A stretch of 64,000 nucleotides of DNA from a virus (lineage: Duplodnaviria; Heunggongvirae; Uroviricota; Caudoviricetes), in the IMG/VR virus record IMGVR_UViG_3300036985_002287, positions 30,613 to 94,612 of that record; one strand, 5' to 3'. A program made the translations under genes and the position numbers. This document shows, piece after piece, positions 3,939 through 64,000 of this stretch. The notes under the pieces are model-generated. The model saw only the letters and a list, made by a program, of their open reading frames with translations, searched no databases and was not told the DNA's origin. The number at the start of each line of letters is the position of its first letter. The first letter of the stretch is position 1.

Positions 3939-5332
3939 TCTTCAATCTCCACTTTTTCCGGCTTGATAGCAGCAGCGAACTGAGCTTCAACTTCTGCGAA
4001 ACTATCGGCAACCGTTTTGTCATCGCGGACCTCAATCAATCGTGGTAGGAACAGCGAGTGCTTCTTACCGGCCTTAGTGGAATACATAATACCATTAGAA
4101 CGAATGACAGCAATCTTGTTCATGTATTCGGCGCGGTTGTTATGTATTTCGTTCCGCAAATCATCTGGAATACCCGAAGCATTGACCAAAAGCAGGCCGC
4201 AGCTACTCTCACAGATAAGCGAACCAAATAAGTGAGCAAACTTATTTTTACCTGGTGTAAATCCTTTAATTTCAAGGTCGACGTCAACAACTTCCTTCTG
4301 CTTAACTTGATCTTTGCTTGTACCATCCTTCCAGATTGCGTGACGACTCTTACATACTGTGCCTTCCAACTTACGCCGACGAGCATCACGATAATGTGCA
4401 AGTGCTTCATCGGGAGAATAAACAATCTTTGTTTCAATCAGCTGGATCTGAATAACATCTGTACCTTGTAAGACAGGCTTCATTACCTGTTTTTCAAGCG
4501 AAATAAACCGTTCATGATAAGGAATATTATATTTGCCCTTAGAAACAAATTCTTCTAGCGGAATCTGATCCCAACAATCAAAAACGACCACCTCACCTTC
4601 GCCGAGCGACCCACCTTTGGAAACAGAATTCAAAATCCCATTTCCAATTTGGCGTTCCAACATCACACCGTTACGATACACAGTAAGTTCGCCATGTGTG
4701 CTCGTTCCGTGTGTAAATGTTTTCGCAGCATAATCTTCAATGCCGAGCGCATCCTGAGGCATTACTGTACCACCACGTGAGGTGATTTGAACAAATCCAT
4801 CCTTGCCGACATTCACATAAGCAAACATTCCGTCTGCTTTGATTTGTGAATACACACCTTCGGAATAGTCCCACTCTTCCATATTAGAAGATTCGGGCAA
4901 AGAGCAGCGCATATAAGGAGTGACAGGAATTTCGTAATCCTTGTTTACACCTTTGACAGCTTTGTTTACTGTGGATTCACTAAATCCAGAACCCAAGTCT
5001 TTGATAAGAATCTTGCGATACCAACCATTCCATTGATCATTAGTTGATCGCAGCATGGACATATTGATCGCATCCAGCGCCGCGTGACCTGTTAATACCC
5101 GTTTAGTCAAGCCAACAGCCAGCAGCTTAAACATGTCGAATGGCAATCCTGCTCCATCTGCACCGCTGCGGATAGGAACCTTCTTCACACCAAATGTATC
5201 GATGTTATCCAGCGCATAGCGCAAGCCGGCAAAGAATTCGGTATTGCCTGCCTTAGCTTCACGAGCAATAACACCCTGTTTGAAGAGTTTGCCATTGTCG
5301 GATGCGATTTCTGTAAGTAGTTGGTGTGTCAT
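3935..5332 (-). CDS. ATP-dependent DNA ligase
   Basis: Adenylation motif I KADG (SQIKADGMFAY), EGTVCK (motif IV-like), later K-rich motif; 465 aa. Confidence 0.8.
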   Translation of the reverse strand: MTHQLLTEIASDNGKLFKQGVIAREAKAGNTEFFAGLRYALDNIDTFGVKKVPIRSGADGAGLPFDMFKLLAVGLTKRVLTGHAALDAINMSMLRSTNDQWNGWYRKILIKDLGSGFSESTVNKAVKGVNKDYEIPVTPYMRCSLPESSNMEEWDYSEGVYSQIKADGMFAYVNVGKDGFVQITSRGGTVMPQDALGIEDYAAKTFTHGTSTHGELTVYRNGVMLERQIGNGILNSVSKGGSLGEGEVVVFDCWDQIPLEEFVSKGKYNIPYHERFISLEKQVMKPVLQGTDVIQIQLIETKIVYSPDEALAHYRDARRRKLEGTVCKSRHAIWKDGTSKDQVKQKEVVDVDLEIKGFTPGKNKFAHLFGSLICESSCGLLLVNASGIPDDLRNEIHNNRAEYMNKIAVIRSNGIMYSTKAGKKHSLFLPRLIEVRDDKTVADSFAEVEAQFAAAIKPEKVEIEE

Positions 5333-53367: not shown

Positions 53368-56316
53368 TCAGCAGTTGCTGAAGTCAAACAACGTTTCCAG
53401 GTGTGCATGTTCTTTGTTGGTTCTGCTAAGATCCCATTTAAGCACACCTAATAAATTTTCGACCTTCTTATCGACAATGCCTGCCATCATATCGTCACTG
53501 TCGAATGGCAAACTTAAGAACCATTCCGGTAAATGTGTTTCGTCTACAGGATATGCAATACTAGACAATCTATTTTCGGTTGTTTCTTTTAACTTACAAA
53601 CAATAATCTTTTGGCCGTCGACGATACGCATTGCATGTTGGTCTTGATTAATTTCCTTTAACTTGTTCCATGCAAGACTAGCAGATACATGACCCGGTAC
53701 ATGCAAGTTTCCGGATTCTATACCCTTCAACTTTTTAACACCGGCATCTTCTATCTTTTCTCTATAATGCGTTAATCTATTAACTGCGCGAGGAGTGCCT
53801 TGCTGCCATGGTTTCATGCTTTCGAATGTTTCCTTGAATAGCTTAATCTTTTCTATGACAGCATTCTCGCCCTTACCAGTCAATGTATCCATCAATATTT
53901 CTGATAAGAATTTTTGAACAAACTTAGGTGTATCAGCTCTCTTCAGATCCAGTCCCATTGCCTTTACCTTACCTACTTTGCCACTAGCATCAAGTCGAAT
54001 TCCGTCCTTATCATACATAAGACAAGCATAACGTTTCTTAACAATCCATAATCCTGTTTCGGACACTGTTTCACGAGAACTAGCAATTACACCAGTGGAT
54101 CGCTTAATGGGCACATTTAGTCGTCCTAATAAGAACTCCGGGAATGTTGCAGATACTGCTTTGGCTAAGGAATTGTACAAATCTACAATGCTTTCCTTTG
54201 TCCACTCTATCTCACCCCTGTCAATCTCTTCTTTAAGAATAGGATATGCGGAGAAATAACACGAGTCAGTATCGCCATATACGATGCACTTACCATAATG
54301 ATCATATTCATTTGTTATCATCTCATTAGTCTTAGCAGCCATATGTTTAGTAATTGTTCTGCCAGTTAATGTAGTAGATTGTCCGAGGCGTTGATCAAAG
54401 AATCTGCTTCCAGCATTTAACAAAGCGCCGTATGCGGAGTTCAGGTTAATTTTCTTAACTAACTGCCTCTTGTCCCAGAAACCAATGATAGATTTCAGTG
54501 ACTTCTGGTCACGATGAATTGCTTTACCATCTTTTACCATTAAGTTATGTTGGTTCATATATTGAACAACACGCTTCTTATGACCTTCGGAAATAATTTC
54601 TTTCAGTTTCTTTGGTCTATATGCTTCGGAATCCAGGAAAGGATCTGCCTTTGATTCTACATCACTTATGTCATCGTTCGTAAACAAATCTGCAGAAACC
54701 TTTACGCCGTCGATCTTAGCATTATCTTCTATATCCTGATAATTTACCATGAGACCCTGAAGTATCTTACGCTCGTTATACCAACGAGTTAATAGACTAG
54801 GAATAACACCGTCTGTATCAGTTTTGAATATTGTGCCATTTGCGCTAATGCACCAAGGCTGTCCACTCTCAAATATTAAGTCATGAAGTTCTTTACCTGT
54901 CACTTCAAATTCGGAACCATCTTCCATATCTAATATCATAGATGTGCCGATATCTTGATTATAGAAATCTTCCATCTCTAACACATTAAATCTGTCGTTC
55001 CACCAAGATGCAAATGTATATTTTGCGCCTTTCTTTTCCCAGTCAGCAATTGCCTGATTAGTACGATCCAATCTAATCTGCCCGATAATCATTTCAGGGC
55101 TCATATTAAGAGTTCTAATAACAGATGGATACAGAGACTTCATGTCGGTAGAAGCGATCCATCTATGCAAACCCTTCTTAGGTGTTGCTACCCACCCGCC
55201 TGCTGCTCTAGTTTCTCTATCTTCGCCATGCTTCTTATCCGGGCACACCATATTACGGTTGTGCGCTTCTATAAGAATGTTTTGATCAGTAACTGCCACA
55301 ACACCCATAATTGTCTGAATTAACACACAACTCGAATGTGCAATAGAATTAGCCAAATCAATAAACTGTAATTTTCTATCAAGCTGATCCAGCAGTCGTG
55401 TATCTTGTATGTTATACTCTAAAAACTTCTTAAAATCGTCATTGTATAATTCATCTAGAGTACCTTCATATTGTACTTTAGTTTCGCCTAGTTCAATTTC
55501 TGCAATTGCATTAAGCGCATAACTATGCCGTTCTTCATAGTTGAACTTCTTATAAATTTGCATATAGTCGATAGATATTCTGCCGATCAGATCGTATGTA
55601 AATGCTTCTTTTCCGCCTCTGTCGTATTTTCTTTCTTTAGGCATTTGTTCCCAGAGACATAGCTTTCGGGCCGCTTGTTTTCCTAATACTTTCTTTATAC
55701 GATTAACTACATACGGAATATCATATACTTCCGAATTCCATCCAGATAATACATCGGCATCTTCTACAATGTCCATGAAGGCATTTAACATCTCGCCTTC
55801 ATCTTTGAATAATACAGTATTACCTACCTGATTAGCAATTTCATTTGCTTCTTCCCAGGTATGTGTATCTGGTGGAATAGCCAAACAAATAATTTCATCC
55901 TGCCACTGTAAGTGTACTGATATAGCTGTTATGTAATTATCTGCATCGGCTGGATCAGACCAACCACGTTCTTTATCGAAACTAGTTTCTATATCGAAAA
56001 ATGCTACATTTAATTTAGGTGCTTCGCCACTGTGATAATTATGTTCGAGACATCGAAAGACAGGATCTACGTCAGATTCCCAACTCTTGACATTACTGGA
56101 TAATGTTTTAACAAGTTTTTGTTTTTCGCCAAATGAGCGCGGCGTTACTTTTTTGACTGCGTCGCCAAAAATACTTTTGTGTGAACCACGCGGATCAGTG
56201 ACAAAGAAATGGAAATCAGGTTGGTACTCTTTATAAACACGAGCCCCGTTTATTCTTTCTACTATCCTGATTGTTTCTTCTTCGCCCGATCTCTTGAAGG
56301 AGGCATCAATATACAC
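53368..56316 (-). CDS. family-B DNA polymerase with 3'-5' exonuclease domain
   Basis: FDIETS (ExoI), DMKSLYPS (motif A), KINLNSAYG (motif B), YGDTDS (motif C). Confidence 0.95.
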   Translation of the reverse strand: MYIDASFKRSGEEETIRIVERINGARVYKEYQPDFHFFVTDPRGSHKSIFGDAVKKVTPRSFGEKQKLVKTLSSNVKSWESDVDPVFRCLEHNYHSGEAPKLNVAFFDIETSFDKERGWSDPADADNYITAISVHLQWQDEIICLAIPPDTHTWEEANEIANQVGNTVLFKDEGEMLNAFMDIVEDADVLSGWNSEVYDIPYVVNRIKKVLGKQAARKLCLWEQMPKERKYDRGGKEAFTYDLIGRISIDYMQIYKKFNYEERHSYALNAIAEIELGETKVQYEGTLDELYNDDFKKFLEYNIQDTRLLDQLDRKLQFIDLANSIAHSSCVLIQTIMGVVAVTDQNILIEAHNRNMVCPDKKHGEDRETRAAGGWVATPKKGLHRWIASTDMKSLYPSVIRTLNMSPEMIIGQIRLDRTNQAIADWEKKGAKYTFASWWNDRFNVLEMEDFYNQDIGTSMILDMEDGSEFEVTGKELHDLIFESGQPWCISANGTIFKTDTDGVIPSLLTRWYNERKILQGLMVNYQDIEDNAKIDGVKVSADLFTNDDISDVESKADPFLDSEAYRPKKLKEIISEGHKKRVVQYMNQHNLMVKDGKAIHRDQKSLKSIIGFWDKRQLVKKINLNSAYGALLNAGSRFFDQRLGQSTTLTGRTITKHMAAKTNEMITNEYDHYGKCIVYGDTDSCYFSAYPILKEEIDRGEIEWTKESIVDLYNSLAKAVSATFPEFLLGRLNVPIKRSTGVIASSRETVSETGLWIVKKRYACLMYDKDGIRLDASGKVGKVKAMGLDLKRADTPKFVQKFLSEILMDTLTGKGENAVIEKIKLFKETFESMKPWQQGTPRAVNRLTHYREKIEDAGVKKLKGIESGNLHVPGHVSASLAWNKLKEINQDQHAMRIVDGQKIIVCKLKETTENRLSSIAYPVDETHLPEWFLSLPFDSDDMMAGIVDKKVENLLGVLKWDLSRTNKEHAHLETLFDFSNC

Positions 56317-56568: not shown

Positions 56569-56645
56569 GTTACTCCTTGAATCTTAGTGTTTTACTTAGC
56601 ATTTAAGCTAGTGTAACACCGATCTTTACGAAAGTATAGAGTTTC

Positions 56646-57054
56646 TTAGTTGCAGGCGCATCGGGCAACTTCCTTGCCACGATAATCAGCAATTGCTGCC
56701 TTCACTGCATCCTCTGCAAGAATTGAGCAATGTATCTTAACCGGAGGTAGTGCCAATTCTTCTGCAATTTGCGAATTCTTAATAGTTGCTGCTTCGTCTA
56801 GTGTCTTACCTTTTACCCATTCGGTAACTAAAGAACTCGACGCAATAGCTGACCCGCAACCATATGTCTTAAATTTTGCATCTTCGATGATGCCTGTAGC
56901 GGGATTTACTTTTATTTGGAGTTTCATTACATCTCCGTTAACCGCACGCTGGGGCGCCGACAATGCCGGTTCCAACGTGCGTATTCTCCTTATCTAAATT
57001 CCCGACATTACGGGGGTTTTCATAGTGGTCAATCACTTGTTTACTATAGGACAT
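56646..57054 (-). pseudogene. iscU: IscU Fe-S scaffold gene interrupted by a 7-nt insertion (in-frame TAA after Cys of GAPACG)
   Basis: ATG 57054: MSYSKQVIDHYENPRNVG...GAPACG-stop; removing TAACGGA restores ...ACGDVMKLQIKV...TYGCGSAIASSSLVTEWVKGK...PPVKIHCSILAEDA. Confidence 0.7.
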
Positions 57055-57628
57055 TTTTAGTTCTCCTTCTCTCATGAGCAAGTTTCATGGATATAGATCT
57101 CTTGAGACGTGTTTCTTCGGAGACCTCCTTACCTCTGTTTCCTGCTTGAATCTTTAATTTAGTTTCCGCGGAATGTTGTTTACCTAACATGGGGCCGGGT
57201 TTACCATATCCGTGATGTTTTTCTCCAGAAAACTGTTTTAATTTTGTTTTTTGTTCTTCAGACATAATCCTGCCAAAACAAACATTCTTCTCCCCGAGCA
57301 TAGATTCGCTTTTCTTACGTTTTTCTTCTTCTGTCCAGGCTCTTCCACCCTTAGAATGGCCTATCTTACCCACATTACCTTCGCCGCCATCGGATTTATT
57401 CTGTAATATGCCTGTATTAATATCTTTTCTTCCCCACCACGCAATCATCCTGCGTTCTATCGCCCAGGCACCTATCTCGGATAATTTAGATTCAAGAATC
57501 ACAATTTTCGACTTATCGTTAGGTCTGTTTATGTTTGTGTGCTTTTCCCAGGCTCTCCTGTTTTTACCTTTCCCTATGTAGTAAGGTTTACCGGAGTTAC
57601 CTATATATGCATATACATAGAACATCAT
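57044..57628 (-). mobile_element. GIY-YIG homing-endonuclease gene (Seg-like, NUMOD3-type repeats)
   Basis: YVYAYIGNSGKPYYIGKG (GIY-YIG); repeated G..HSxETKxK motifs; free-standing between sigma-like gene and iscU, overlapping both. Confidence 0.75.
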
Positions 57629-58761
57629 ACACGTCCAAATGCGTTGCCGGTAAGTGCTTCATTTGAGCCTTTATATTGGTGTGGATCGTATCCATGTATA
57701 GGAGAAAAGAGTCCTTTGCGTTCGTTTTCGTCTGCCCTCGGTTGGCCAAAACGATGCATCTGATCCGGCATTACTCTATCTAACCAAGAGACCACGAATG
57801 GACGGATATCTCGATTAGGCTCGGTGTCCTCTAGTGTTCTTATTTGATCATTCAACTCGTCATCATCTATAATTTCTATTAGGTAGATAGATGCTACTGC
57901 TGCTGGAATAGGATTTTCCATTATTCGCTTAACTACTTCGAAATCATCGTCTGTCAACGGTAACTTGTTCACTGATTCATTGACTCTACCTACTGGTCTG
58001 AAATCGTATTTGTCTGGATTTTTATCTTCTCTGCCTAAGAATACGGCGGTGTTACTGGCCTTCCCTGGCGTTTTATATATGTGGCCGGGAACCCTTTTGT
58101 TCGTAGATTTATCGTATATTTCGTAATATTTAACATCTCCGGCAGTAGCATTGTTAGTAATATTAGGTGTAGGAATCTTAGATAACTCCTTAGCCCGGTC
58201 GATATAAGCTGCCTTCATGATTCCCCGTAATCCACTTGCTTCGAGTTGTCTGATTCTTTCTCTGGTGACACCCATTTGTTCCGCAATTTCCTGGTATGTC
58301 ATTTCACCAAATACTCTCATCTTAATTACTTCGGCAATTCTGTCGGGTAGCATTGACATATACTTTTTAATAACCTGATCTCGGGTCATTGGGCTAAGTT
58401 CTTCTTCATATCCGTCGTCAGGTACTGAACTTAGTGGTTCAGCATTATCTGCCGGGTCAGGTCTTAAAGTGGGCATCTGCTCTCCACGATAGGTAGCGCC
58501 ATCCGGATTATATAGACTCATCTGTTGTTTAGGATTTGCTTCAGTTATAGCAATTTCTTTTATTGCTGCTTTGAATTCATCATAGTCTGTCTTCAAATGT
58601 GCTTTTAAGAATTCTTTTCCAGACTTAGATGTTTTAGGATCACATATCTTATCTACATATCCGGTCATGCGCTTTTGCAAGGCATCGATCTTTTTGATTT
58701 TTTGAGGCGATAGACTCTTGTCGGAAGTGCCTTTAGGTAATAGGATTTCTAAAATTCTCAT
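57625..58761 (-). CDS. sigma-70 region-4-like HTH protein (atypical sigma factor or transcription regulator)
   Basis: RIAEVIKMRVFGEMTYQEIAEQMGVTRERIRQLEASGLRGI = region 4.2 signature in mid-protein; no region 2 recognised. Confidence 0.5.
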   Translation of the reverse strand: MRILEILLPKGTSDKSLSPQKIKKIDALQKRMTGYVDKICDPKTSKSGKEFLKAHLKTDYDEFKAAIKEIAITEANPKQQMSLYNPDGATYRGEQMPTLRPDPADNAEPLSSVPDDGYEEELSPMTRDQVIKKYMSMLPDRIAEVIKMRVFGEMTYQEIAEQMGVTRERIRQLEASGLRGIMKAAYIDRAKELSKIPTPNITNNATAGDVKYYEIYDKSTNKRVPGHIYKTPGKASNTAVFLGREDKNPDKYDFRPVGRVNESVNKLPLTDDDFEVVKRIMENPIPAAVASIYLIEIIDDDELNDQIRTLEDTEPNRDIRPFVVSWLDRVMPDQMHRFGQPRADENERKGLFSPIHGYDPHQYKGSNEALTGNAFGRV

Positions 58762-60983: not shown

Positions 60984-61040
60984 TCTTGTTCCTTCTTGTT
61001 CTCTATTATTTATCATAAGTAGACAAGAATTATAACCCAT

Positions 61041-61066
61041 AAAAAAGCCGCCTACTGGCGGCTTTC
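61041..61066 (-). terminator. intrinsic terminator
   Basis: AAGCCGCC-AGTA-GGCGGCTT followed by TTTTTT on minus strand after ClpA-like gene. Confidence 0.75.
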
Positions 61067-61079
61067 TATATTAGCTTAT

Positions 61080-63296
61080 TTAATTTAATATTTCTTCTAA
61101 GATAGGAGATATAACGTCAATACTCAATGCATCTCCTACAATGTCATAATCGACGTTTGCTCTACCGCCATTTCTTAATTTTCCGAATAAGATTTCTTTA
61201 GACAGTGGCTTTTTAACTTTCTCTTCAAACAACCGTTCAAATGGTCGCGCACCCATCTTAGGATCATATCCATTCTTAGCTAACCAGTCACGTGCTTGTT
61301 GAGTAACATTTATGCTAATATTCTTAGGAGAAAGCATTACGTCAAGCTTCTCTACCTCGGCGTTAACAATTAAGTTCATGCCAGACATAGTTAATTTATT
61401 AAATGTCACTATACCATCTAATCTATTTCTAAATTCCGGAGTAAAGAAGCGTTTAACTTCTGCTTCTACTGCATTACTATTGTCCTGATTGCCAAATCCG
61501 ATTTTTAATTTTTCAGTTTCGGCGGCACCCAGATTAGCCGACATAATAATTATCACATTTGAAAAATCAATTGTCTTACCTTTAGACGAAGTAAGCCGGC
61601 CGGCATCCATAACTTGTAATAATACACTAAGAACGTCCGGATTAGCCTTCTCAATTTCATCTAACAGTAATACACAGTTAGGATGTGTATCAATCGTCTG
61701 GATTAGTTGTCCCTCACCCATCTTACCTTCGCCGTGTCCTACATACCCGGGAGGCGCACCAATAAATTTAGATACAGTATGCTTTTCCATATACTCGGAC
61801 ATATCAAATCTAGCAAAATGTACACCCAATGTTTCGGCAAGTTTACTAGCCGTATAAGTCTTACCAGTTCCTGTAGGGCCAGTAAACAAGAAACTACCGA
61901 TGGGCTTAGATGGATTTCGTAATCCTGCCTTAGACATAAAAATAGCTTCGACTAATTTATCAATTGCTTCATCTTGTTCATATACCTTGTCCTTCATACG
62001 CGGAGCAAGATTCTCGAGTGAAGTATTCTCTTTCATATCAATCATATCAACAGGCATATGTGCAATCTTTGCCGCCTGCTGCACAATAGTATCGATAGTA
62101 ACGACTGTCTGATCCATCAGTTTAGTTATCGCGCCAGCTGAATCCATAATATCGATTGCTTTGTCAGGGAAGAACTTCGACTTCAGATATCGGTCAGCTA
62201 AATCCACGCACATATCTGTGGCACCTTCCTCGAAAGTAACACCATGGAATTTTTCGTATTGATAAGCAATACCTTTAAGAATTAATTTAGTCTCTATTGC
62301 GGACGGTTGTTCAATATCATATTTTTGGAAGCGACGAAGCAATGCTTTGTCCTTCTCGAAGTGTTGATGGAACTCGTCGTATGTGGTCGCACCTACACAA
62401 GTTAATTGTCCTTTGGCAAGCATAGGTTTCAACAAATTGCCTGCATCCATTTGACCACCACCTGCGGCGCCCGCACCTAAGATCATATGAATTTCATCAA
62501 TGAACATAATGCAGTTGCCCATTTTCTTAACTTGCTCTAAAACACCTTTAAGACGTTCTTCAAAGTCTCCACGGAATTTTGTGCCAGCAATCAGTGCGCC
62601 AACATCTAAACTATATACTACTTTGTTCTGTAATGCTTTAGGCACTTCTTTATTAACAATTTTTAATGCAAGTCCTTCAGCAAGTGCTGTCTTTCCAACA
62701 CCGGGTTCGCCCACGTAAACTACGTTATTCTTTCTGCGTCTAGCAAGAATTTCGATAGTATCCATAACTTCTTTTTCTCTACCGATTACAGGATCGATAG
62801 ATCCGTCAGTAGCTTCCTTATTCAGATTACGTGCATATTGATCTAAGAAAGTCTCATTAGGTCCTTGCTTTTCTTCCGACTTACGCAGTTGTCCCATAAT
62901 CTTTTCTCTGGTAACACCGTGTTTACCTAAGTAATAGAATGCATGACTAGTTTCTTCACTAAGGATACTCAGTAGAATACCTTCGTTAGTCAATTCTCTG
63001 CGACCCGAAAATATTACTTGAGTTAATGCACGTTGAAACGTGCGATTTAATACTGATGTACGCTTTGCCGGCACATCTTTGAGTGCATCAGGTTTCTTTA
63101 GTGCAGGATCACCCAAAAATTGGACAGTTTCGACCTTAATCTTAGCCGGTTGTCCGCCTACTGCAAGTATAAGTTCGTTAACTTCTTTCTCATGCAACAG
63201 AGATAATAGCATATGTTCTAAGGTTACATATTCGTGATTATTGTCATTAGCGAGAGTCACTGCTCTCTCGATCATCTTTTCTACTTTTTTAGTCAT
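61080..63296 (-). CDS. ClpA/ClpB-family double-AAA+ chaperone (ClpA-like length)
   Basis: Clp_N repeat; [15 protein letters not shown] and [15 protein letters not shown]alker A motifs; 738 aa, no long M-domain. Confidence 0.85.
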
Positions 63297-63303
63297 GTTT
63301 ACC

Positions 63304-64000
63304 TTAAATATTTATAGATTCTCTGTGATTCAAAGACTTCATAATGTCCTTCTCTGCGTCACTTAAATTTTTAGGAATACTGATATTGATCCTAACCAAG
63401 ATATCGCCCTGCCTATCTATCTCGGGATTGTTCATACCTTTCCCACCTAATTTAACTATTTGCCCGGGCTGAATACCTGCCGGTATTGTAAACTGTAGTT
63501 TAGCACCGTCTATATGATCGAGTATAGCCTCCACGCCCAGAGCAGCTTCAGCGGAATTAATATTTACATCGACTAATAAGTCGTCGTTCGCCCTCTTAAA
63601 TTTATAATGAGGTTGAACATCTATACGGTATAATTTATTATCAGCGAAGAATCGTGTACCCGACCGTACTCCTCTAGGAATAGTCAAAGTAACTGACGAA
63701 TCGACCCTAATTACCTTACCCGAATAAGCATCTGCTAATGAAATATTTATAACAGTTATTTGTTGGCGGCGCTGAGTGCCACTATAGGGGTCGAATGATG
63801 CATTAGTTCCAAAGAATGATTTAAGCATATCTTCGACATCTCGTTGGTTAGTCGTACCATGTGCCCATTGCTGTGCATTTCCACCAGATAGACCTTCGTG
63901 ACCGTGTATATCGTACTGTCGACGCTTCTCGACATCGGCAAGAATTTCGTATGCCTCTTTAACTTCCTTGAAGTTAGCTTCGGCGGTCAGTTTTTCGGGC
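63304..64000 (-). CDS. DnaJ/CbpA-like J-domain co-chaperone (5' end beyond window)
   Basis: Frame stays open upstream of track ATG: ...FKEVKEAYEILADVEKRRQYDIHG (end of J domain), then DnaJ C-terminal beta-domains; no Zn-finger CxxCxGxG. Confidence 0.75.
   Translation of the reverse strand, partial: PEKLTAEANFKEVKEAYEILADVEKRRQYDIHGHEGLSGGNAQQWAHGTTNQRDVEDMLKSFFGTNASFDPYSGTQRRQQITVINISLADAYSGKVIRVDSSVTLTIPRGVRSGTRFFADNKLYRIDVQPHYKFKRANDDLLVDVNINSAEAALGVEAILDHIDGAKLQFTIPAGIQPGQIVKLGGKGMNNPEIDRQGDILVRINISIPKNLSDAEKDIMKSLNHRESINI

What the first reader, a model, noticed from the sequence alone, without database searches (positions are those of the whole stretch)
56646..57628. Phage iscU split by a 7-nt insertion at the first catalytic Cys, adjacent to a GIY-YIG homing-endonuclease gene
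The minus strand from ATG 57054 encodes MSYSKQVIDHYENPRNVGNLDKENTHVGTGIVGAPACG and then hits TAA. The sequence ...GCG TGC GGT [TAACGGA] GAT GTA ATG AAA... returns to a perfect IscU reading (ACGDVMKLQIKV...TYGCGSAIASSSLVTEWVKGK...PPVKIHCSILAEDA) if 7 nt are removed. As I recall the E. coli IscU sequence, the two halves together match it closely. The interruption falls in the GAPACGD motif, just after the first cluster-ligand Cys. A free-standing GIY-YIG (Seg-like) endonuclease ORF ends 11 nt inside the iscU start and itself overlaps the upstream sigma-like gene by ATGA. Possible explanations are a true pseudogene, an assembly or sequencing error, a repair scar or immunity mutation at a homing-endonuclease cleavage site, or recoding. 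Separately, a phage Fe-S scaffold would make sense for a genome that carries at least two radical SAM enzymes.
Basis: partly seen in the sequence, partly recalled or inferred. Interest (0 to 1): 0.65.

Follow-up and report, generated by a model that had tools for sequence, protein, structure and literature searches.

The report
Short ribosome-hop cassette in phage iscU
The 7-base "break" in this phage's iron-sulfur scaffold gene is real, and it looks like one copy of a widespread, conserved element that probably makes ribosomes hop over a stop codon and that travels with homing-endonuclease genes, which would be a short natural counterpart of the phage T4 gene 60 bypass.

Summary
On the minus strand, iscU (57054-56646) reads ...GCG TGC GGT TAA C GGA GAT GTA..., and removing 7 nt restores a full IscU.

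It is not an artefact: five independent assemblies carry the identical junction. It does not behave like a pseudogene. About 85 related phage alleles carry an insert at the same codon, always laid out as Gly codon, stop (TAA, TAG or TGA), 1-4 spacer nt, Gly codon, then the Asp codon. In an unbiased scan, 56 of 56 inserts ended in GGN. Sequence after the stop stays under purifying selection.

The insert comes with two upstream signals that intact alleles lack. One is a covarying 10-bp stem-loop whose 3' arm ends in the take-off codon (66/66 versus 0/92). The other is a fixed GGAG (85/88 versus 1/99).

The element is tightly linked to an HNH-like endonuclease gene directly upstream (50/67 versus 0/87). 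The window's GIY-YIG-like gene is an occasional substitute, and it also occurs beside an intact iscU.

Best reading: a homing-endonuclease-linked, short-gap translational bypass cassette. This is untested experimentally. It is a new variant of a known kind.

The parts
56941..57054 (-). iscU segment 1: codons 1-38 (MSYSKQ...GAPACG), ending in the take-off Gly codon
   Evidence: Together with segment 2 it forms a full IscU. Its nearest relatives are other cassette-bearing alleles (L136 at 92%).
56986..56991 (-). Shine-Dalgarno-like AAGGAG (GGAG core at 56989-56986), 4 nt 5' of the stem
   Evidence: GGAG lies 45-49 nt upstream of take-off in 85/88 interrupted alleles and in 1/99 intact alleles. 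It occurs in two codon registers (AAG GAG and AAA GGA GAT), so it is conserved as nucleotides and not as amino acids.
56972..56981 (-). 5' arm of the stem (CGCACGTTGG)
   Evidence: It pairs with 56952-56943. Window fold: -27.5 kcal/mol, z = -2.85. RNAalifold gives the same structure. Covariation is shown.
56957..56969 (-). Inner 5-bp hairpin (CCGGC AUU GUCGG) at the top of the stem-loop
   Evidence: It is 96.7% paired across 30 alleles, with one-sided changes only, so it is weaker evidence than the outer stem.
56943..56952 (-). 3' arm of the stem (CCAGCGTGCG). Its last G is the first base of the take-off codon.
   Evidence: All 10 outer pairs form in 66/66 distinct interrupted alleles and in 0/92 intact alleles. 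Three positions show compensatory changes, and 0 of 500 shuffles reach the observed values.
56941..56943 (-). Take-off codon GGT (Gly38)
   Evidence: It is always GGN in the family.
56938..56940 (-). In-frame stop codon TAA, in the A site at take-off
   Evidence: TAA, TAG and TGA are all used in the family.
56937..56937 (-). 1-nt spacer (C)
   Evidence: The spacer is C, A, G or T, or 3-4 nt (TTA, ATTA, ATTT, AACC), in other alleles.
56934..56936 (-). Landing codon GGA (Gly)
   Evidence: In a scan that left these bases free, 56/56 IscU-context inserts end in GGN. Chance hits outside IscU have arbitrary triplets there.
56646..56933 (-). iscU segment 2: resume codon GAT (Asp39) through the stop (DVMKLQ...ARCACN*)
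   Evidence: The frame is open and conserved in all interrupted alleles. pN is 0.14-0.17 while pS is about 0.78. A population variant has 9 synonymous and 0 nonsynonymous differences. Nearest relatives outside its own population are intact alleles of the same phage clade.
57044..57628 (-). Free-standing GIY-YIG-like (Seg-like) homing endonuclease gene. It occupies the slot usually held by the HNH-like partner.
   Evidence: NUMOD3 E = 2.9e-8. phrog_314 'homing endonuclease' E = 4e-6. TIGR01453 E = 1.3e-7, below its cutoff. Homologues are annotated as Seg-like or group I intron endonucleases. The GIY-YIG signature residues are conserved. L002 shows an insertion scar.

Best explanation
The 7 nt belong to a roughly 60-nt programmed translational bypass ('hop') cassette written into codons 22-38 of a functional phage iscU.

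Proposed mechanism (inferred): a ribosome reaches Gly38 (GGT) in the P site with TAA in the A site. The peptidyl-tRNA-Gly lets go of GGT, the mRNA slides 7 nt, and the tRNA re-pairs with GGA. Decoding resumes at GAT (Asp39), giving the exact wild-type IscU sequence ...APACG-DVMK....

Two upstream signals found only in interrupted alleles probably promote this. One is a 10-bp stem-loop whose 3' arm ends in the take-off codon. The other is a GGAG 4-5 nt 5' of that stem. By analogy with the 5' stem-loop of T4 gene 60 and the stem-loop plus flanking SD proposed for phage Hau3, refolding of the stem at the mRNA exit, anchored by GGAG pairing with the anti-SD, could pull the mRNA forward by the short distance needed.

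Why the insert exists (inferred by analogy with MobA and gene 60): it interrupts the conserved GAPACGD-coding sequence, which is a likely target of the HNH-like homing endonuclease normally encoded just upstream. That would make the carrier immune to its own enzyme. Endonuclease gene plus cassette would then spread into intact iscU alleles by break repair with co-conversion.

In this window the cassette has been kept, but the neighbouring slot holds a GIY-YIG-like endonuclease gene instead.

Shown here: the anatomy, its conservation, covariation, selection, mosaicism and linkage. Inferred: hopping itself, its efficiency, the role of each signal, and protection from cleavage.
For: 1. The junction is real and stable: five independent assemblies carry it.

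2. The anatomy is conserved while details vary. There are 17 junction classes, all laid out as GGN, stop, 1-4 nt, GGN, GAY. All three stop codons are used, and insert lengths are 7, 9 and 10 nt.

3. In the unbiased metagenome scan, 56/56 IscU-context inserts end in GGN.

4. Take-off GGC lands only on GGC or GGT, and take-off GGA or GGG lands only on GGA. The published gene 60 homologues follow the same rule.

5. A 9-nt in-frame variant (L055) and the 6-nt in-frame J2 inserts cannot be decoded by frameshifting.

6. There is purifying selection after the stop. pN is 0.13-0.19 while pS is 0.55-0.86 among interrupted alleles. Within the window's own population there are 9 synonymous and 0 nonsynonymous differences. 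No interrupted allele has further lesions.

7. RNA structure: the outer stem forms fully in 66/66 interrupted alleles and 0/92 intact ones. Compensatory pairs are CG/AU/UA, UA/CG/GC/AU and GC/AU. None of 500 shuffles reaches the observed values, and slid registers pair at only 31-41%.

8. GGAG sits at a fixed position in 85/88 interrupted alleles against 1/99 intact ones.

9. An HNH-like gene lies directly upstream in 50/67 against 0/87 alleles (p = 3e-26). The cassette persists in 17 alleles without it.

10. Mosaicism: segment 1 groups with cassette alleles, and segment 2 groups with local intact alleles.

11. A second site in the same gene (J2) has the same architecture, with the endonuclease gene on the facing side.

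12. The element is absent from the iscU genes of 185,579 representative cellular genomes.

13. Precedents: gene 60/MobA, and Hau3 10-nt blocks with mass-spectrometry-proven bypass in E. coli.
Against: - There is no experimental evidence. No junction peptide, reporter assay or cleavage assay exists.
- In the window, and in 32 of 85 alleles, take-off GGT and landing GGA are not read by the same standard tRNA-Gly. Landing would need a wobble mismatch or a four-way-reading tRNA-Gly(UCC).
- The GGAG is about 45 nt from take-off. It is useful only if the stem-loop brings it close, and the exit-side geometry is tight.
- At J2 the landing codon is CUN, not CCN.
- In the window the landing codon creates GGAG-N6-ATG, so some re-initiation at Met41 is physically possible.
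- The +1 frame is open across every 7- and 10-nt insert, so frameshifting is excluded only by the in-frame variants, one of which is a single contig.
- Alleles are phylogenetically related, so the counts overstate the number of independent events.
- iscU is dispensable in this clade, since many relatives lack it.
Confidence: 0.7

Rival explanations
1. Split gene ('gene in pieces'). Translation ends at TAA to give a 38-aa N-terminal peptide. A separate C-terminal fragment is initiated internally, either at Met41 using the GGAG made by GGA+G, or at an upstream TTG/GTG served by the AAGGAG. The two pieces then assemble into a working scaffold.
For: The window has GGAG-N6-ATG at Met41, and also AAGGAG-N10-TTG in the C-terminal frame. 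An SD-like motif precedes ATG41 in 50 of 62 ATG-bearing interrupted alleles. Endonuclease-split phage genes that still function are known, for example nrdA and topoisomerase subunits (described).
Against: - 14 of 76 interrupted alleles lack ATG at codon 41. ATG is not enriched compared with intact alleles (82% against 89%, p = 0.2).
- Only 19 of 66 alleles have an SD-spaced start in the C-terminal frame, and some alleles (such as L354) have neither option.
- J2 offers no start codon at all.
- This model does not explain the invariant landing Gly codon, the covarying stem that ends in the take-off codon, or the requirement for a stop.
- The fragment would lose Asp39, and Cys37 would be separated from the rest of the protein.
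Confidence: 0.1
2. Programmed +1 ribosomal frameshifting at GGT-T. This would produce IscU with two extra residues (APACG-NG-DVMK), or three extra in the 10-nt variants.
For: Insert lengths of 7 and 10 nt are both 1 modulo 3. A stop in the A site, often followed by C, is the classic +1 context, as in prfB (own knowledge). The +1 frame is open across all 7- and 10-nt inserts.
Against: - The 9-nt insert at J1 (L055) and the 6-nt inserts at J2 are in frame yet share the same cassette architecture.
- There is no consistent re-pairing codon, because GGA-T, GGC-T and GGT-T all re-pair poorly.
- The would-be inserted residues vary (N, R, D, E, S, EL, EF, RT), like non-coding sequence, while the final GGN is invariant.
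- Extra residues between Cys37 and Asp39 would alter the cluster-binding loop.
Confidence: 0.08
3. Dead gene. The insert is only an endonuclease-immunity or repair scar that inactivates a dispensable accessory gene, and it spreads by co-conversion with the endonuclease gene regardless of iscU function.
For: iscU is absent from many close relatives and is decaying in some. L087 lacks it, L097 is truncated, and L135/L138 are frameshifted. The insert travels with endonuclease genes and a conversion tract. Divergence between interrupted alleles could partly predate acquisition of the cassette.
Against: - About 100 interrupted alleles have no additional stops or indels.
- Within the window's own population there are 9 synonymous and 0 nonsynonymous changes after the stop.
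- 17 alleles keep the cassette without the HNH-like gene.
- A scar does not need a landing Gly codon, a stop of any type, a covarying RNA stem or a fixed GGAG.
Confidence: 0.08
4. Assembly or sequencing artefact.
For: None beyond the prior expectation for a frame-breaking indel in metagenomic data.
Against: The junction is identical in five assemblies from five samples made by three pipelines. The same and variant junctions occur in more than 100 other contigs.
Confidence: 0.01

Closest known systems
Phage T4 gene 60 / MobA translational bypass cassette (Manning & Atkins, bioRxiv 10.1101/2022.08.31.505936; Atkins et al. 2016, PMC5009743)
   Same: - A Gly take-off codon is followed directly by a stop, and a Gly landing codon is followed by the resume codon.
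- The take-off codon is involved in a stem-loop, there is an SD-like element, and the exact wild-type protein is restored.
- The insert sits in a highly conserved active-site-coding stretch next to a free-standing HNH-type homing endonuclease gene.
- The cassette sometimes persists after the endonuclease is lost or replaced by a GIY-YIG enzyme.
- There is mosaic, co-conversion-like inheritance.
   Different: - The gap is 7-10 nt, not 50 nt.
- The stem-loop lies entirely 5' of the gap rather than spanning take-off, stop and gap.
- The SD-like element is 5' of the stem, about 45 nt upstream, not 6 nt 5' of the landing site.
- The host gene is iscU, not the topoisomerase II large subunit.
- The gene is not split into two ORFs with added tails.
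- No KKYK-type nascent-peptide signal is evident.
[quoted passage not shown]
- No sequence homology is apparent.
Candidate short bypass in the Streptomyces phage Hau3 / StrepC.1 terminase gene (PMC10732093)
   Same: - Short frame-disrupting blocks (10 nt) lie inside a conserved phage gene.
- A 5' stem-loop with a flanking internal SD has been proposed, and a landing codon directly precedes the resume codon.
- Bypass, not +1 frameshifting, was shown by mass spectrometry in E. coli when UAA was placed in the A site.
   Different: - Hau3 uses the rare sense codon UUA as the slow A-site codon and is proposed to be regulatory.
- It is known in three genomes only.
- It has no homing endonuclease link and no covariation support.
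- Here the A-site codon is a true stop, there are about 85 alleles in 17 junction classes, and the RNA structure is supported by compensatory changes.
Synthetic 'stop-hops' in E. coli (Weiss et al. 1987, as summarised in PMC5009743)
   Same: Matched codons flank a stop, peptidyl-tRNA re-pairs a few nucleotides downstream, and a slow A site is important.
   Different: Those were engineered constructs with low efficiency and no dedicated signals. The review states that natural in-frame stop-hops are not known. The J2 inserts and the 9-nt J1 variant here are candidates for exactly that.
Mitochondrial 'byp' elements of Magnusiomyces capitatus (as summarised in PMC5009743)
   Same: Many short inserts in conserved genes are bypassed in translation. 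[quoted passage not shown]
   Different: Byps are 27-55 nt long, rely on an unassigned A-site codon and relaxed mitochondrial decoding, and have no endonuclease partner. They are spread over many genes rather than confined to defined sites in one gene.
Other mobile-element tolerance strategies in the same gene: inteins, and endonuclease-split genes
   Same: These are other ways for a mobile element to interrupt an active-site-coding sequence without killing the gene. Inteins occur at the second ligand Cys of iscU in L101 and L303.
   Different: Inteins act after translation and carry their own endonuclease domain. Here the interruption is 6-10 nt and must be dealt with by the ribosome.

Membership tests
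IscU / NifU_N Fe-S scaffold (host gene) | Full-length match above the curated threshold | tested here: met
   After removing the 7 nt: Pfam NifU_N E = 1.5e-54 over 2-125/127, and TIGR01999 iscU 221.7 bits against a cutoff of 192.4. Neither fragment alone is full length.
IscU / NifU_N Fe-S scaffold (host gene) | Ligand and partner motifs: Cys37-Gly-Asp39, Cys63, His105-Cys106 and LPPVK (residue roles from own knowledge) | tested here: met
   GAPACG|DV, YGCGSAIASS and LPPVKIHC are all present in the window and in every interrupted allele. The junction falls between Gly38 and Asp39.
Programmed translational bypassing (gene 60 type) | Take-off and landing codons able to pair with the same peptidyl-tRNA, with the landing codon directly 5' of the resume codon | tested here: inconclusive
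   Both codons are always Gly (56/56 in the unbiased scan). 53 of 85 alleles have identical or wobble-related pairs. The window and 31 other alleles have GGT then GGA, which needs a third-position mismatch.
Programmed translational bypassing (gene 60 type) | Stop or slow-to-decode codon directly 3' of the take-off codon | tested here: met
   TAA in the window, and TAA, TAG or TGA in all alleles.
Programmed translational bypassing (gene 60 type) | mRNA structure involving the take-off codon or lying 5' of it, supported by covariation | tested here: met
   A 10-bp stem ends on the first base of the take-off codon. It forms in 66/66 interrupted and 0/92 intact alleles, with three compensatory positions. 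Its placement differs from the gene 60 take-off stem-loop.
Programmed translational bypassing (gene 60 type) | Internal SD-like element about 6 nt 5' of the landing site | tested here: not met
   The conserved GGAG is 45-49 nt 5' of take-off, and 4-5 nt 5' of the stem. This placement resembles the SD 'flanking the stem-loop' proposed for Hau3.
Programmed translational bypassing (gene 60 type) | 50-nt coding gap in the topoisomerase II large-subunit gene, with a MobA cassette and a nascent-peptide signal | tested here: not met
   The gap is 7 nt, the gene is iscU, and the partner is a different HNH-like family or a GIY-YIG-like gene. A nascent-peptide effect cannot be tested here. So it works like gene 60 but is not a member of that cassette family.
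Programmed translational bypassing (any type) | A single polypeptide spanning the gap is actually made | not testable with these tools
   This needs mass spectrometry of a junction peptide or a reporter assay.
GIY-YIG (Seg-like) homing endonuclease (window ORF 57628-57044) | GIY-YIG catalytic domain recognised by a curated model | tested here: inconclusive
   - There is no Pfam GIY-YIG hit. TIGR01453 gives E = 1.3e-7, below its cutoff, and only over the linker.
- A homologue hits LEM-3_GIY-YIG at E = 1.7e-4, below its cutoff.
- The signature residues YxY...YIGKG..R...E...N are conserved in the alignment with annotated Seg-like and group I intron endonucleases.
- There is no PDB sequence match.
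GIY-YIG (Seg-like) homing endonuclease (window ORF 57628-57044) | Free-standing, sporadically present between conserved genes, with DNA-binding NUMOD modules and an insertion scar | tested here: met
   - NUMOD3 E = 2.9e-8, and phrog_314 'homing endonuclease'.
- It is present in the window, L002 and L097 but absent from most syntenic relatives.
- In L002 the last 14 codons of the sigma-like gene are duplicated on the far side of the insert.
HNH homing endonuclease (cluster C0, the cassette's usual partner; not in the window) | HNH (beta-beta-alpha-metal) domain recognised by a curated model | tested here: inconclusive
   - Pfam HNH is below threshold in 9 of 12 members (best E = 0.0099).
- The members share an invariant D-H-I-I-P...N...N-R-x-K-W motif, a CxxC...CSxxC zinc finger, and WNKG (NUMOD-like) repeats.
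- There is no PDB sequence hit, and hhalign to the L002 HNH protein matches only the repeat region.

The most novel reading that the evidence does not exclude
Phage iscU genes carry a second, independent and widespread family of programmed translational bypass elements. These are short-gap (6-10 nt) 'stop-hop' cassettes with their own covarying 5' stem-loop and SD-like signal, mobilised by HNH-like homing endonucleases at two different active-site-coding positions of the same gene.

This would be the natural short-distance counterpart of gene 60 that the recoding field has long presumed to exist. The in-frame J2 and 9-nt variants would also be the first natural in-frame stop-hops.
Probability: 0.65. 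Interest if true: 0.9.

Novelty: new variant of a known kind. Interest (0 to 1): 0.82.

Why it matters
Efficient programmed bypassing has rested almost entirely on one system, T4 gene 60 and its homologues in a single gene. The authors of the 2022 survey still call that cassette 'unique'. The 2016 review says shorter natural counterparts were 'long presumed', and that natural in-frame stop-hops are unknown. The only short-gap phage candidate, Hau3, is known from three genomes.

If this iscU element hops, it offers several things:
- A compact cassette of about 60 nt, rich in natural variants, for working out how a ribosome takes off, moves a few nucleotides and lands. The 17 junction classes and the natural compensatory mutants amount to a ready-made mutagenesis series.
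- A second case in which a homing endonuclease appears to use recoding to place an immunity insert inside an active-site-coding sequence. That would suggest a general strategy alongside introns and inteins.
- A practical warning. Gene callers split or truncate these genes (45+93 aa or 109 aa calls), so similar elements are probably being filed as pseudogenes elsewhere.

Tried and rejected
- **Close cultured relatives:** megablast against cultured phages found nothing. The polymerase is at most 43% identical to any cultured phage.
- **First exact junction search:** it found nothing in viral contigs because I had included ATGAA, which L136 lacks.
- **Internal initiation of the C-terminal fragment:** not conserved.
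- **+1 frameshifting:** cannot decode the in-frame variants.
- **Suppressor tRNA or readthrough:** the window encodes only tRNA-Leu(UAA), tRNA-Met and tRNA-Arg(UCU). Readthrough cannot restore the frame of a 7-nt insert.
- **Other hop-like interruptions in the 64-kb window:** a scan gave 36 candidates, and all but iscU are ordinary gene boundaries or non-coding frames.
- **Cellular iscU genes:** 35 pattern hits in 185,579 representative genomes, none in an IscU context.
- **Rfam:** no match in 56600-57700.
- **PDB sequence searches:** nothing for either endonuclease. hhalign of the HNH-like family to the L002 HNH protein aligned only the repeat region.
- **Structure prediction of the HNH-like family:** not possible under the tool's input restriction.
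- **Errors of my own that I corrected:** two extraction offsets (fixed), and regex register artefacts of 1 and 4 nt at site 3.
- **Not explained:** why the J2 landing codon is always CUN rather than CCN.
Full report
**1. The observation**

On the minus strand, iscU starts at 57054 and reads MSYSKQVIDHYENPRNVGNLDKENTHVGTGIVGAPACG. It then meets TAA at 56940-56938. The local sequence is GCG TGC GGT TAA C GGA GAT GTA ATG AAA. Skipping 7 nt restores a 133-aa protein. That protein matches Pfam NifU_N end to end (E = 1.5e-54). It passes the NCBIfam IscU equivalog cutoff (221.7 against 192.4 bits).

The genome is a divergent T4-like jumbo phage with no close cultured relative.

**2. It is not an artefact**

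The exact 194-aa neighbour protein is encoded in five assemblies from five samples: two Logan, one ENA and two JGI. All five carry the identical junction and are 99.86-100% identical to the window. Gene callers split the gene into 45+93 aa, or call a 109-aa ORF.

**3. Relatives**

The syntenic contig L002 has the gene order sigma-like, GIY-YIG-like, iscU, DsbA-like, polymerase, at 83-89% amino-acid identity. Its iscU is uninterrupted (GCATGTGGT-------GATGTA). This defines the insert and shows that this endonuclease gene does not require it.

A survey of 80 syntenic loci shows that iscU is an accessory gene in flux. It is absent in many, intact in many, truncated in L097, frameshifted in L135/L138, and intein-bearing in L101.

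L136 is a much more distant phage (polymerase 78% identical). It has the identical junction but no GIY-YIG gene and no ATG after the junction.

**4. A recurrent, conserved element**

Degenerate pattern scans recovered the same site interrupted in many contigs. In an IscU context the layout is always Gly codon, stop, spacer, Gly codon, Asp codon.

- There are 17 classes, for example GGT TAA C GGA, GGT TAG A GGA, GGA TGA C GGA, GGC TGA G GGC and GGC TGA ATTA GGT.
- One class has a 9-nt in-frame insert, GGT TAG TTA GGT. It came from the unbiased protein search.

Those patterns forced GGN at the landing position. I therefore scanned the metagenome collection with the four bases after the stop left free.

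- 56 of 56 IscU-context hits ended in GGN.
- Chance hits outside IscU carried arbitrary triplets.
- The same pattern found no IscU-context hit in 185,579 representative bacterial and archaeal genomes.

Take-off GGC lands only on GGC or GGT. Take-off GGA or GGG lands only on GGA. Take-off GGT lands on GGA (32 alleles), GGC or GGT.

**5. Selection**

Every interrupted allele rebuilds into a complete IscU with all motifs intact. Among interrupted alleles, pN is 0.13-0.19 while pS is 0.55-0.86, on both sides of the stop.

Within the window's own population, one variant differs at 9 sites downstream of the stop, and all 9 are synonymous.

**6. The insert is the tip of a structured cassette**

Interrupted alleles share an invariant CGCA-N-G about 40 nt upstream. 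It is conserved as nucleotides across different amino acids (codons NCG then CAN). It is complementary to the Ala-Cys-Gly codons just before take-off.

The window RNA folds into a 10-bp stem (56981-56972 with 56952-56943) plus an inner hairpin, at -27.5 kcal/mol and z = -2.85. RNAalifold on 30 diverse alleles returns the same structure.

- Three outer-stem positions show compensatory changes: CG/AU/UA, UA/CG/GC/AU plus wobbles, and GC/AU.
- No outer-stem pair is broken.
- 0 of 500 shuffles reach the observed pairing or covariation.
- Slid registers pair at only 31-41%.
- All 10 pairs form in 66/66 distinct interrupted alleles and in 0/92 intact alleles.

A GGAG sits 45-49 nt upstream of take-off, which is 4-5 nt 5' of the stem. 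It is present in 85/88 interrupted alleles and 1/99 intact alleles, in two codon registers. Rfam has no match.

**7. A second site with the same design**

Thirteen distinct alleles carry a 6-nt in-frame insert, CCN TAA/TAG CTN, between LPP and VKIHC. Some also carry J1.

They have their own SD-like GAGGAGG and a stem whose 3' arm runs into the take-off Pro codon. L200 carries a triple compensatory change, GGGCAAA paired with TTTGCCC.

The landing codon there is CUN, which is near-cognate for tRNA-Pro through a G-U pair. I cannot explain why it is never CCN. Readthrough remains possible at that site.

**8. Link to homing endonucleases**

I classified the immediate neighbours of 169 iscU genes.

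- One roughly 200-aa family has a zinc finger, WNKG repeats and a DHIIP...N...NRxKW motif. Pfam HNH is below threshold in 9 of 12 members.
- This family lies directly upstream of iscU, on the same strand and ending within -26 to +3 nt of the ATG, in 50/67 J1 alleles and 0/87 others (p = 3e-26).
- It lies directly downstream of iscU in 8/13 J2 alleles and 1/130 others (p = 3e-9).
- Each insert therefore lies about 100 nt from its endonuclease gene, on the facing side.
- Seventeen J1 alleles lack the gene, so the cassette outlives it.

The window's GIY-YIG-like family is a rare alternative occupant of the slot. In L087 a Vsr-like ORF replaces the whole GIY-YIG + iscU module.

**9. Mosaicism**

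Upstream of the junction, the window's iscU is closest to other cassette-bearing alleles (L136 at 92%). Downstream, it is closest to intact alleles of its own phage clade. In L055 the downstream part is 95% identical to an intact allele. This is what co-conversion during homing would produce.

**10. Interpretation**

The only single mechanism that decodes the 7-, 9- and 10-nt J1 inserts and the 6-nt J2 inserts into wild-type IscU is translational bypassing. In that mechanism, peptidyl-tRNA leaves the codon before the stop and re-pairs at the landing codon.

- Internal initiation is not conserved.
- Frameshifting fails on the in-frame variants.
- A dead gene does not fit the selection data or the dedicated signals.

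The design parallels T4 gene 60/MobA. [quoted passage not shown] It also parallels the Hau3 terminase, which has 10-nt blocks, a 5' stem-loop with a flanking SD, and bypass shown by mass spectrometry in E. coli.

The review literature states that short natural counterparts were long presumed, and that natural in-frame stop-hops are unknown.

I found no report of this element. That search covers open-access papers and bioRxiv only.

**11. Caveats**

- Nothing here is experimental.
- The window's GGT-to-GGA pair needs a wobble mismatch on landing.
- The role of the distant GGAG, and the exit-side folding model, are inferences.
- The HNH and GIY-YIG assignments rest on motifs and sub-threshold matches.
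- Alleles are related by descent, so the counts are not independent events.
- Only 7- and 10-nt inserts were searched for systematically.
- The claim that the insert blocks cleavage is by analogy only.
- My statement that Gly or Pro-Pro followed by a stop and then C is a weak termination context is from memory, not from a tool.

Noticed in passing
L104, L121, L193-L206, L294, L296 (e.g. L104 around 4057-4062); not in the window: A second interruption site in phage iscU (J2). A 6-nt in-frame insert, CCN TAA/TAG CTN, lies between LPP and VKIHC. It has its own SD-like GAGGAGG and a covarying stem-loop, and the HNH-like gene lies downstream of iscU. Several alleles carry both J1 and J2. The landing codon is always CUN rather than CCN, which I cannot explain.
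   Followed up: partly
L101 1-310; L303 (iscU region): Inteins are inserted at the second ligand cysteine of iscU (...KTYG | C-intein...SHN | CGSAIASS). All three ligand-motif-coding sites of this small gene are therefore targets of mobile elements.
   Followed up: no
window 57625-58761 (-) compared with L002 2263-2838 and L087 3219-4142: The sigma-like gene is 378 aa in the window but 191 aa in L002 and 307 aa in L087. Residues about 64-256 of the window protein are a lineage-specific insertion holding the only recognisable Sigma70 region 4 domain. L087 has a different insertion at the same place.
   Followed up: no
L002 3414-3464: The last 14 codons of the sigma-like gene (GTNDPITGNAYGRR*) are duplicated between the GIY-YIG-like gene and iscU. 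This looks like a scar of endonuclease-gene insertion at the sigma-like/iscU junction. The window lacks this 53-nt segment.
   Followed up: partly
L087 4194-4943 (replaces window 57634-56651): A relative that is 90-93% identical at the nucleotide level, with an almost identical polymerase protein, has neither iscU nor the GIY-YIG-like gene. In their place is a 249-aa ORF with an N-terminal zinc finger and a C-terminal Vsr-like motif (IIEIYGDYWH). The slot is a hotspot holding at least three endonuclease types.
   Followed up: partly
L097/L166 4820-4933: Beside an 89%-identical GIY-YIG-like gene, iscU is cut down to residues 1-35 (an intact-type allele with no cassette). The deletion starts exactly at the GAPACG codons and joins sequences with GCGCC-like microhomology. 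This is suggestive of a break at that site but is untested.
   Followed up: no
L002 4194-4871; L094 and L143 (polymerase in two pieces): There are further mobile inserts nearby. L002 has an HNH plus NUMOD3 gene between the DsbA-like gene and the polymerase gene. Insertions of about 640-1640 nt split the DNA polymerase gene at about residue 685 in L094 and L143.
   Followed up: no
window about 61000-64000 (-), from the gene table of L082: DnaJ-like and ClpB/Clp_N-AAA chaperone genes lie a few kb upstream of iscU. In many other iscU-carrying phages an IscA-like gene (Pfam Fe-S_biosyn, E = 2.3e-17) follows iscU. Phage Fe-S assembly modules therefore vary in content.
   Followed up: no
window 53368-56316 (-) compared with L087 5253-8201: The DNA polymerase genes differ by about 10% at the nucleotide level yet are nearly identical as proteins. 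This indicates very strong purifying selection, or recombination among closely related co-occurring phages.
   Followed up: no
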